Part shown: positions 21,541-63,473 of the stretch, one piece after another | Position numbering within the stretch: the first letter of the stretch is position 1 | How the letters are laid out: each line of letters starts with the position of its first letter | From: Candidatus Hodarchaeota archaeon | GTDB lineage: Archaea > Asgardarchaeota > Heimdallarchaeia > Hodarchaeales > Hodarchaeaceae | Length of the DNA stretch: 63,473 bases | Direction: 5' to 3' | NCBI GenBank assembly: GCA_016839815.1 | Contig: JAEOTM010000171.1 | Span: 1 to 63,473 of the forward strand | The notes under the pieces: model-generated | Seen by the model: the letters and a program-made list of their open reading frames with translations, nothing else | Databases searched by the model: none | What the model was told of the DNA's origin: nothing | Made by a program: the position numbers and the translations under genes

Positions 21541-21643
21541 TGGGTTCGAGGGGAATTCCGTTATGCTTAACACAAGCATAAGTTCGAACCCCTGAACTCG
21601 TGCACCCCAGGCACGGATCCTAGCCAAGCTAGACCACGAACCC
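21541..21643 (-). tRNA. tRNA-Pro(GGG) with a 28-nt T-loop intron (59/60; 21555-21582)
   Basis: Acceptor GGGTTCG/CGAACCC, anticodon arm CGTGC-CTGGGGT-GCACG. BHB with TTCG/CGGA helix, AAC and ATT bulges and inner helix TTATGCTT/AAGCATAA. Splicing restores TTCGAAT. Confidence 0.93.
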
Positions 21644-21880
21644 CTTTTGTTTTCACTGAATATGCTGATATTTTTTTACGTTTAATCTTCAAATCGCATG
21701 TATACACTAGTAGCGTATTGATTTGCCTATCAGTAATACTTAAGGGCATTTATTTCCCAATGCTAAAGAAATTAAAAGTTGTTCTATTATCTAAATAGAA
21801 CATTCAAATTGCAAAAAGAGATTTGAAAGACGTCTAAGATTCTTTAAATATTAGATTAATGTTGGAGATGGATTTTAAAC

Positions 21881-63135: not shown

Positions 63136-63358
63136 TTAGGTTTATCCATTGACTATTAGAATCTAAAGACTAGTTTCCTGTTGATCTATTTAACTACAAA
63201 AGCCTACCGTTCTGTATAATTTATTTCCTTCCCTAAAATTCTTTCTAACTATAGAAGCTAAATATATAAAGATTCTTGAAAATGCCCCAACTGGTTTGTA
63301 ATCTCGCAAACAGACGTCTTGTGCTGAAACACGCGCTAAAATATCCTGTGAGATATTG

Positions 63359-63473
63359 CCGAAAGTTAAGTCAGGCTCCGTTCTGATCTGTACTGTTGTG
63401 CTCGCGCCTACGGGAAAATCGGAAAGCTGAAGGTTCTTCGGCCAAAGGGCCTGAGTCACACCCGGTCTCATTC
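63359..63473 (+). rRNA. rrf: 5S rRNA in permuted order (3' half 63359-63432, then 5' half 63436 to window end); truncated by the window edge
   Basis: 3'-half hallmarks: AAGTTAAG, loop E TGTACT/GGGAA, helix V TTCTGAT/ATCGGAA. 5'-half hallmarks: CGGCCAAAG, ACACCCGGTCTCATTC. Helix II GGGCCTGA/TCAGGCTC and helix I CTTCGGC/GCTGAAG are complementary between the halves. Confidence 0.85.

What the first reader, a model, noticed from the sequence alone, without database searches (positions are those of the whole stretch)
63340..63473. Circularly permuted (or concatemeric) 5S rRNA gene
Seen in sequence: the 5S 3' half comes first (CCGAAAGTTAAG-TCAGGCTC...loop E...GCTGAAG, 63359-63432). After only GTT it is followed by the 5' half (CTTCGGCCAAAGGGCCTGAGTCACACCCGGTCTCATTC). 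The normal 3' and 5' ends are thus fused into a hairpin that closes helix I (GCTGAAG/CTTCGGC), and the halves are mutually complementary in helix II (8 bp). Upstream of 63359 there is no recognisable 5S 5' half, only a small hairpin AATATC/GATATT and a TGAGA that could pair with loop-C TCTCA. Established knowledge: archaea have permuted tRNA (Thermofilum) and SRP RNA (Thermoproteus) genes and circular rRNA intermediates made by the BHB endonuclease/RtcB system. I know of no permuted archaeal 5S gene. Inference: this is either a functional permuted gene with new ends in helix III/loop C, or a genomic copy of a circularised 5S RNA, or a head-to-tail 5S array.
Basis: partly seen in the sequence, partly recalled or inferred. 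Interest (0 to 1): 0.85.

Follow-up and report, generated by a model that had tools for sequence, protein, structure and literature searches.

The report
Back-to-front 5S rRNA gene, Asgard
This Hodarchaeales (Asgard) archaeon encodes its only 5S ribosomal RNA with the back part before the front part, between cut-and-join signals of the tRNA-splicing type, so a normal 5S can arise only by cutting and re-joining the transcript, probably into a 120-base ring; this also explains why 5S genes looked missing in these close relatives of eukaryotes.

Summary
The window is a whole contig that ends inside the gene. A second contig of the same genome (C6) overlaps its last 182 bases and supplies the missing 11 bases plus a trailer. 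The order is leader, 5S 3' part, a 3-nt loop closing helix I, 5S 5' part, trailer. It is one permuted unit, not an array.

- **Only 5S found:** Rfam's 5S model finds no normal 5S in this genome (89.5% complete).
- **Conserved:** a model of the permuted unit finds it full-length in 79 of 83 Heimdallarchaeia genomes, some closed, and in most other Asgard families sampled.
- **Either/or:** the families without it carry a normal 5S.
- **Functional:** all five 5S helices keep pairing through compensatory changes.
- **Processing signal:** leader and trailer form a relaxed bulge-helix-bulge motif. Cutting two bases into each bulge and ligating gives the helix III sequence of normal-order Asgard 5S genes.
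- **Enzymes:** the genome encodes two EndA paralogues and RtcB.
- **Not shown:** cleavage, ligation and a circular product are inferred; I obtained no RNA data.

No paper in the searched library reports this. Wu et al. 2022 could not find 5S genes in closed Heimdallarchaeum genomes. This scan has noted the same thing before on other DNA, including contig C6.

The parts
63260..63271 (+). A/T-rich TATA-box-like element, putative archaeal promoter of the 5S precursor
   Evidence: Read from the sequence. It lies about 25-30 nt upstream of the first base of the outermost leader stem. This is an inference; no transcript start was mapped.
63293..63305 (+). Leader strand of the outermost processing stem
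   Evidence: It pairs with an 11-nt stretch of the trailer on contig C6, directly before a T-run. The pairing is present in the minimum-energy fold of the 233-nt precursor. An equivalent stem is visible in several same-genus loci.
63333..63337 (+). Second leader-trailer pairing (5 bp)
   Evidence: It is complementary to a 5-nt stretch of the C6 trailer and is formed in the precursor fold.
63350..63358 (+). Leader strand of the outer helix of the BHB-like motif (9 positions, one A.C mismatch)
   Evidence: It pairs with the first 9 trailer bases after the trailer bulge. All 9 pairs show changes on both sides across 26 units, with 78.6% of cells paired. An uninterrupted run of at least 5 bp is present in 34 of 42 units, against 3.8% of controls with swapped leaders.
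63359..63362 (+). Leader strand of the central 4-position helix of the BHB-like motif
   Evidence: It pairs with the 3' strand of helix III on C6. In this genome that gives 3 bp plus an A.C. The helix has 4 bp in 31 of 42 units, with 12 different complementary 4-mer combinations across lineages.
63363..63365 (+). Leader-side bulge; predicted cut between 63364 and 63365
   Evidence: Position rule of archaeal BHB cleavage, from my own knowledge. The cut leaves 63365 as the first base of the mature RNA. The predicted joint equals the continuous sequence of normal-order Asgard 5S genes.
63365..63432 (+). 3' part of the 5S rRNA: lower helix III 3' strand, loop B, helix II 3' strand, helices V and IV with loop E, helix I 3' strand
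   Evidence: The RF00001 alignment covers this domain. Covariation was counted per helix.
63433..63435 (+). 3-nt loop that caps helix I where a normal 5S has its two ends
   Evidence: Relatives carry loops of 3-7 nt here, often UUCG or UACG tetraloops, or longer hairpin extensions.
63436..63473 (+). 5' part of the 5S rRNA (helix I 5' strand, loop A, helix II 5' strand, helix III 5' strand, start of loop C), cut off by the contig end
   Evidence: It continues for 11 nt on C6 (C6 83933-83923, minus strand). Then come the trailer bulge, the trailer strands of the stems and a T-run.

Best explanation
This is the organism's functional 5S rRNA gene in circularly permuted order.

**Transcript.** A transcript starts near 63293 and ends at a T-run on the adjoining contig C6. 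It carries, in order: leader, the 3' two-thirds of 5S, a 3-nt loop closing helix I, the 5' third of 5S, and trailer.

**Motif.** Leader and trailer pair into a long stem. The innermost part of that stem is a relaxed bulge-helix-bulge motif:
- an outer helix of 9 positions;
- a 3-nt trailer bulge;
- a 4-position central helix formed between the leader and the 3' strand of helix III;
- a 2-3-nt leader bulge;
- a 3-bp inner helix.

**Processing.** The tRNA-splicing endonuclease would cut two bases into each bulge, and RtcB would join the ends. That restores helix III with its AA bulge and yields a 120-nt molecule. Helix I stays capped, so that molecule would be a closed ring.

**Shown here:** the permuted order, its completeness, its conservation, the covariation, the absence of any other 5S gene, and the presence of the motif and the enzymes.

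**Inferred:** cleavage, ligation and circularity of the mature RNA.

**My odds:**
- real, functional permuted gene: about 0.95;
- cut and re-joined at the motif: about 0.7;
- the ring is the ribosomal form: about 0.5.
For: **Completion of the gene**
- A second contig completes the gene and shows non-5S flanks on both sides.
- Rotated to normal order, the 120 nt fold by minimum free energy into the 5S three-way junction. They align without a gap at the joint to normal-order Asgard 5S genes at 56-68% identity.

**No other 5S gene**
- RF00001 finds no other 5S in this genome, which is 89.5% complete.

**Conservation**
- The same order is found in 19 of 21 same-genus genomes by DNA search, some of them single-contig genomes.
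- Model R1 finds the full-length unit in 79 of 83 genomes of the class and in all 14 high-quality ones.
- RF00001 passes its cut-off in only 4 of those 83. Two of the four lie beside bacterial 23S and are contaminants.
- In a sample of 151 genomes of the phylum, permuted and normal 5S are complementary by family.

**Covariation**
- 92% of cells are paired, against 30-49% when the partners are slid. 33 of 45 pairs show compensatory changes.
- In tandem units, helix II covaries within each unit only.

**BHB-like motif**
- A 4-bp central helix together with an outer run of at least 5 bp occurs in 55% of 42 units, against 0.8% of controls with swapped leaders.

**Enzymes**
- The genome encodes two divergent EndA paralogues and a full-length RtcB.

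**Literature**
- Wu et al. 2022 (PMC8813620) state that 5S genes could not be predicted in closed Heimdallarchaeum genomes. Those genomes each carry two permuted units.
Against:
- In this genome the central helix has only 3 standard pairs plus an A.C. The leader bulge is 2 nt if the next G pairs, and the inner helix is only 3 bp. The motif is therefore relaxed, not canonical.
- In one family (f3) a hairpin is inserted between the outer and central helices, so the motif is interrupted there.
- The central helix competes with native helix III. The two conformers come out about equal in energy, and the minimum-energy fold of the precursor shows neither cleanly.
- Nothing here shows that the helix I cap stays closed.
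Confidence: 0.7

Rival explanations
1. Linear permuted 5S. The precursor is trimmed or cut at the motif but the ends are not ligated. The ribosome would then carry a 5S with a capped helix I and a nick at the helix III bulge, as in the permuted mitochondrial 5S of brown algae.
For: Permuted 5S molecules that remain permuted in the final product exist in brown-algal mitochondria (PMC4267664). The capped helix I and the conserved folding fit this reading as well as they fit a ring. No ligation has been shown.
Against: The leader and trailer keep a BHB-type geometry through many compensatory changes. Simple end trimming would not need that. From my own knowledge, EndA products carry the ends that RtcB joins. 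RtcB is present. The predicted joint reproduces the normal 5S sequence exactly.
Confidence: 0.15
2. Circular intermediate only. The ring is made but is then opened in the helix I cap, giving a conventional linear 5S, as happens with permuted tRNA genes.
For: Permuted tRNA genes are expressed through a circular intermediate that is later opened (Soma et al. 2007, as cited in PMC4267664). Archaeal 16S and 23S circles are commonly described as re-linearised (PMC12918454).
Against: The cap is a 3-7-nt loop, often a UUCG or UACG tetraloop, or a variable hairpin extension. It carries no conserved sequence or tRNA-like element that a known end-processing nuclease would recognise. The permuted SRP RNA of Thermoproteus stays circular (PMC4731332).
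Confidence: 0.12
3. Not a working gene: an assembly artefact, a collapsed tandem array, or a decayed pseudogene.
For: The locus lies at two contig ends, and the two copies differ at one base.
Against: The same order occurs inside single-contig genomes and long contigs of many species. Both flanks are non-5S. Compensatory changes occur in every helix. No other 5S was found in this genome or in the class.
Confidence: 0.02

Closest known systems
Permuted, circularised SRP RNA gene of Thermoproteus tenax (Plagens et al. 2015, eLife, PMC4731332)
   Same: Both are essential structured non-coding RNAs whose canonical gene seemed to be missing. In both the gene halves are in swapped order, the new termini are flanked by a substrate of the tRNA-splicing endonuclease, and ligation restores the functional fold as a circle (abstract read).
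   Different: The RNA here is 5S rRNA, not SRP RNA. The spread is most of a phylum rather than a few species. Circularisation here is predicted, not demonstrated. The motif in this genome is relaxed.
Circularly permuted tRNA genes (Cyanidioschyzon merolae; also Thermofilum, from my own knowledge)
   Same: The 3' part is encoded before the 5' part, the native ends are joined by a short linker, and a BHB-type motif is formed by leader and trailer.
   Different: tRNA circles are reopened at the linker by the tRNA end-processing enzymes. Here the linker is a tetraloop-like cap with no such signal.
Permuted mitochondrial 5S rRNA of brown algae (Valach et al. 2014, PMC4267664; Rfam mtPerm-5S)
   Same: It is a 5S rRNA with helix I closed into a hairpin and its ends elsewhere.
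   Different: There the ends lie at the junction of the alpha and gamma domains, and the product stays linear and permuted with no splicing motif. Here the break is at the helix III bulge and a BHB-type motif flanks it. No Rfam family other than sub-threshold RF00001 fragments matched this locus.
Archaeal circular pre-16S/23S rRNA and the permuted or circular 23S (Pyrococcus, Thermococcus, Methanosarcina; PMC7758197, PMC12918454)
   Same: Leader-trailer processing stems with a BHB, and circularisation dependent on EndA and RtcB.
   Different: Those genes are colinear, so circularisation is not needed to build the fold. The 2026 paper lists 5S as the rRNA whose processing does not involve excision and circularisation.

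Membership tests
5S rRNA (Rfam RF00001) | Three-way junction of helices I, II-III and IV-V with the loop C and loop E sequence motifs | tested here: met
   The rotated 120-nt sequence folds by minimum free energy into this shape and aligns to normal-order Asgard 5S at 56-68% identity. All helices covary.
5S rRNA (Rfam RF00001) | Colinear gene that reaches the family's gathering score of 38 bits | tested here: not met
   There are only two fragments, of 16.7 and 20.8 bits, in swapped order. The cause is the permutation, not a lack of homology.
BHB substrate of the archaeal splicing endonuclease (hBHBh') | Two 3-nt bulges on opposite strands separated by a 4-bp helix | tested here: inconclusive
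   In this genome the trailer bulge is 3 nt, the central helix is 3 bp plus an A.C, and the leader bulge is 2-3 nt. The motif is canonical in other lineages, for example G083, G085 and G074.
BHB substrate of the archaeal splicing endonuclease (hBHBh') | Flanking helices on both sides of the motif | tested here: met
   The outer helix has 9 positions with one mismatch and covaries. The inner helix is only 3 bp.
BHB substrate of the archaeal splicing endonuclease (hBHBh') | Actual cleavage by EndA and ligation by RtcB | not testable with these tools
   The enzymes are encoded: two EndA paralogues and one RtcB. No RNA or biochemical data are available.
Permuted non-coding RNA genes matured by circularisation (Thermoproteus SRP RNA type) | 3' part encoded upstream of the 5' part, with the native ends joined by a short linker | tested here: met
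Permuted non-coding RNA genes matured by circularisation (Thermoproteus SRP RNA type) | No colinear copy of the gene in the genome | tested here: met
   for this genome (89.5% complete). for closed relatives.
Permuted non-coding RNA genes matured by circularisation (Thermoproteus SRP RNA type) | Circular mature RNA detected | not testable with these tools
Two scans of metagenome contigs for the predicted joint found nothing.
mtPerm-5S (brown-algal mitochondrial permuted 5S) | Ends at the junction of the alpha and gamma domains, with a linear permuted product | tested here: not met
   The break here is at the helix III bulge. No Rfam match to that family was found.

The most novel reading that the evidence does not exclude
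The 5S rRNA inside the ribosomes of Heimdallarchaeia and most other Asgard archaea is a covalently closed ring of about 120 nt, made by obligatory BHB splicing of a permuted precursor. This would be the first circular 5S rRNA and the first rRNA whose functional fold depends on the tRNA-splicing machinery. The permuted layout would be old, at the root of a large part of the Asgard phylum. The eukaryotic stem lineage would then have either reverted it or branched from a lineage that kept the colinear gene.
Probability: 0.5. Interest if true: 0.9.

Novelty: new variant of a known kind. Interest (0 to 1): 0.85.

Why it matters
- **An open annotation problem.** Authors of closed Heimdallarchaeum genomes reported that no 5S gene could be predicted (PMC8813620). 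In my sample, standard tools miss the 5S gene in 79 of 83 Heimdallarchaeia genomes and in most other Asgard families.
- **A broader role for the splicing enzymes.** In these lineages the tRNA-splicing endonuclease and RtcB would be required for ribosome biogenesis, not only for tRNA.
- **A testable prediction.** It predicts a circular 5S in the ribosomes of the closest known archaeal relatives of eukaryotes. Cultured Asgard strains allow RNA sequencing and cryo-EM to test this.
- **A phylogenetic marker.** The clean split between families with permuted and with normal genes is a rare genomic change that could inform Asgard phylogeny.
- **A practical tool.** A covariance model of the permuted unit would let annotation pipelines and genome-completeness checks find these genes.

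Tried and rejected
- **Predicted joint in metagenome contigs.** Two exact-pattern scans, one for this genus and one for family f3, found nothing. Those records may hold no RNA-derived contigs, so this says little.
- **Thermodynamics.** The native helix III conformer and the BHB conformer differ by 0-3 kcal/mol in seven units, and the minimum-energy fold of the precursor shows neither cleanly. This is not decisive.
- **Fixed-column counting of the central helix.** On alignment A2 it under-counts pairing, because family f3 uses a register shifted by one base. I replaced it with a per-unit register search with swapped-leader controls.
- **Strict pattern scan of one genome per species.** It also hit Actinomycetota and a few other archaea. 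Those score below 38 bits with the permuted model and are not permuted 5S genes.
The hairpin at 63340-63357 and the proposed pairing of a leader pentamer with loop C are not conserved, and I dropped them.
- **Strong RF00001 hits in two Heimdall bins.** They are bacterial contaminant contigs.

Full report
**1. What is in the window**

- A 5S 3' domain ends in the 3' strand of helix I (63426-63432).
- A 3-nt loop follows (63433-63435).
- Then come the 5' strand of helix I (63436-63442), loop A, the 5' strand of helix II and the 5' strand of helix III, up to the end of the sequence.

Rfam's 5S model gives one sub-threshold match of 16.7 bits. Only the 3' domain of that match is convincingly aligned.

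**2. Completing the gene**

The window is the whole of contig C149 of a 206-contig genome that is 89.5% complete. The end of contig C6 overlaps the last 182 bases of the window in reverse complement, with one mismatch at window 63418.

C6 carries the whole unit. After the window's last base come:
- 11 more bases that finish loop C and the 3' strand of helix III;
- a trailer unrelated to 5S;
- a T-run.

Upstream of the 3' part there is likewise no 5S sequence. The locus is therefore one complete permuted unit: leader, 3' part, cap, 5' part, trailer. It is not a fragment of a tandem array.

A search of the complete locus on C6 against all of Rfam gives only two RF00001 fragments, in swapped order, and no other family.

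**3. It is the 5S gene of this organism**

RF00001 finds nothing else in the genome.

The 120 bases between the predicted processing sites, rotated to normal order, fold by minimum free energy into the standard three-way junction. They align colinearly to normal-order 5S genes of other Asgard families at 56-68% identity, with no gap at the joint. One of those genes has the identical 13 bases across the joint.

**4. Conservation**

- **Genus.** A DNA search finds the same order in 19 of 21 genomes of the genus, single-contig genomes among them, and in other families of the class.
- **Class.** I aligned 26 units (A2) and built a covariance model of the permuted unit (R1). R1 finds a full-length unit in 79 of 83 genomes of the class and in all 14 high-quality ones.
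- **RF00001 on the same class.** It passes its cut-off in only 4 of the 83. Two of these sit beside bacterial 23S rRNA and are contaminant contigs.
- **Identity of the class.** Record titles identify it as Heimdallarchaeia, under Hod-, Heimdall- and Kariarchaeota labels. Two of the genomes searched are the closed genomes of Ca. Heimdallarchaeum aukensis and H. endolithica, and each holds two permuted units.
- **Phylum.** In an even sample of 151 genomes of the phylum, R1 finds full-length units in about twenty families. RF00001 finds normal 5S genes in the others: f11 26 of 26, f17 17 of 19, f20 3 of 5, plus f15, f27 and f28. Where both searches report a match in one genome, they hit the same locus.

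The two layouts therefore exclude each other by lineage.

**5. Selection on the fold**

On A2 the permuted 5S structure has 92% of cells paired, against 30-49% when the 3' partners are slid by 1-3 columns. 33 of 45 pairs show changes on both sides, and these occur in helices I, II, III, IV and V and in the leader-trailer helix.

A natural experiment supports the unit as drawn. One genome (G023) has two permuted units in tandem. Their helix II strands differ, and each 3' strand matches the 5' strand of its own unit, not that of its neighbour. Reading the locus as a normal 5S interrupted by a spacer is thereby excluded.

**6. The processing signal**

Leader and trailer pair in three blocks in this genome: 63293-63305, 63333-63337 and 63350-63358, each with a partner on C6.

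The innermost block abuts a 4-position helix formed between leader 63359-63362 and the 3' strand of helix III. A 3-nt bulge lies on the trailer strand and a 2-3-nt bulge on the leader strand. A 3-bp helix lies beyond that.

This is the geometry of the archaeal bulge-helix-bulge motif, in relaxed form. Across 42 units from more than twenty families:

| Feature | Real units | Swapped-leader controls |
|---|---|---|
| Central helix with 4 standard pairs | 31 of 42 (3 pairs in the other 11, this genome among them) | 30% |
| Outer helix with an unbroken run of at least 5 bp | 34 of 42 | 3.8% |
| Both together | 55% | 0.8% |

Twelve different complementary 4-mer combinations occur in the central helix. 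In several lineages, G083, G085 and G074 for example, the motif is fully canonical.

Applying the usual cleavage position, two bases into each bulge (my own knowledge of the enzyme), the two cuts and a ligation give the continuous helix III sequence with its AA bulge. In family f3 both cuts shift by one base, and the product again restores helix III.

The genome encodes two EndA paralogues that are 27% identical. One aligns a serine where the other has the conserved histidine, which suggests a heteromeric enzyme of the broad-specificity kind. That is an inference. It also encodes a full-length RtcB.

**7. What the product is**

Helix I is capped by 3-7-nt loops, very often UUCG or UACG tetraloops, or by variable hairpin extensions. 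Nothing conserved there suggests a second cleavage. If the ends are ligated, the product is therefore a ring, of 120 nt in this genome.

This step is inference. I could not obtain reads. Two scans of metagenome contigs for the predicted joint found nothing.

Notes from earlier stages of this scan say that the re-joined form was seen in environmental RNA for other Asgard genomes. I did not test that and do not count it as evidence.

**8. Known relatives and novelty**

The closest precedent is the permuted SRP RNA gene of Thermoproteus. Its transcript is cut by the splicing endonuclease and ligated into a functional circle (PMC4731332).

Other relatives:
- Permuted tRNA genes use the same logic but reopen the circle.
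- The brown-algal mitochondrial 5S is permuted at a different place and is not ligated (PMC4267664).
- Archaeal 16S and 23S circles come from colinear genes. A 2026 paper still lists 5S as the rRNA whose processing does not involve excision and circularisation (PMC12918454).

Six full-text searches found no report of a permuted archaeal 5S gene. Wu et al. 2022 wrote that 5S genes could not be predicted in their closed Heimdallarchaeum genomes.

I class this as a new variant of a known kind: a known mechanism applied to a new, universal RNA, at the scale of a phylum.

This scan has flagged the same feature many times on other DNA, among them contig C6 of this very genome. My tests were run independently of those notes and agree with them.

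**9. Verdict**

- Observation confirmed.
- Real, functional permuted gene: about 0.95.
- Maturation by BHB cleavage and ligation: about 0.7.
- Ring as the ribosomal form: about 0.5.

Noticed in passing
L037 1501-1638 (-) = G048:C117: A normal-order 5S gene (RF00001, 48 bits) carries a 22-nt insertion at the helix III bulge, the same site where the Asgard genes are permuted. The insertion folds as a hairpin flanked by a 4-bp helix and two 3-nt bulges, like a BHB intron. The contig sits in a Heimdall bin with 6% contamination that also holds permuted 5S fragments, so its true owner is unknown. It could be an evolutionary intermediate between the two layouts.
   Followed up: partly
L024 about 1620-1660 (G001) and L226 about 220-255 (G109): Two unrelated genomes, one of this genus and one of family f14, carry an insertion of about 30 nt in loop C of the permuted 5S. 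In both it ends in a near-repeat of the bases before it. It may be a mini-intron or an expansion.
   Followed up: no
L049 1423-1753 (-) = G023:C510: Two complete permuted 5S units lie in tandem, about 11 nt apart. Each has its own leader-trailer helix and its own helix II sequence.
   Followed up: yes
L041 and L042 (closed Heimdallarchaeum genomes); L040, L044, L047: Family f3 genomes carry a second permuted 5S unit beside a tRNA gene. Its leader has an extra hairpin between the outer and central helices of the motif, which makes a three-way junction instead of a continuous BHB.
   Followed up: partly
window 63418, against C6 83989: This is the single A/C difference between the two overlapping contig ends. 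Both variants occur in related species. It is probably strain variation, and it may be why the assembler did not join C149 and C6.
   Followed up: partly
window 63190-63471 (-): A 93-aa open frame runs antisense across the leader and the 5S gene. It is probably spurious, but a gene caller might report it as a hypothetical protein and so hide the RNA gene.
   Followed up: no
L035 and L036 (G023:C798, G005:C310): Short contigs with a bacterial 23S 3' end plus a bacterial 5S lie inside Heimdall bins. This is contamination that could be mistaken for the archaeon's 5S gene.
   Followed up: yes
L234 77-228 (G194:C2, family f11): A normal-order 5S of 152 nt has an insertion of about 50 nt in the helix IV/V arm (RF00001, 32 bits).
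   Followed up: no
window 21550-21644 (-): tRNA-Pro(GGG) is 95 nt long, so it presumably contains an intron.
   Followed up: no
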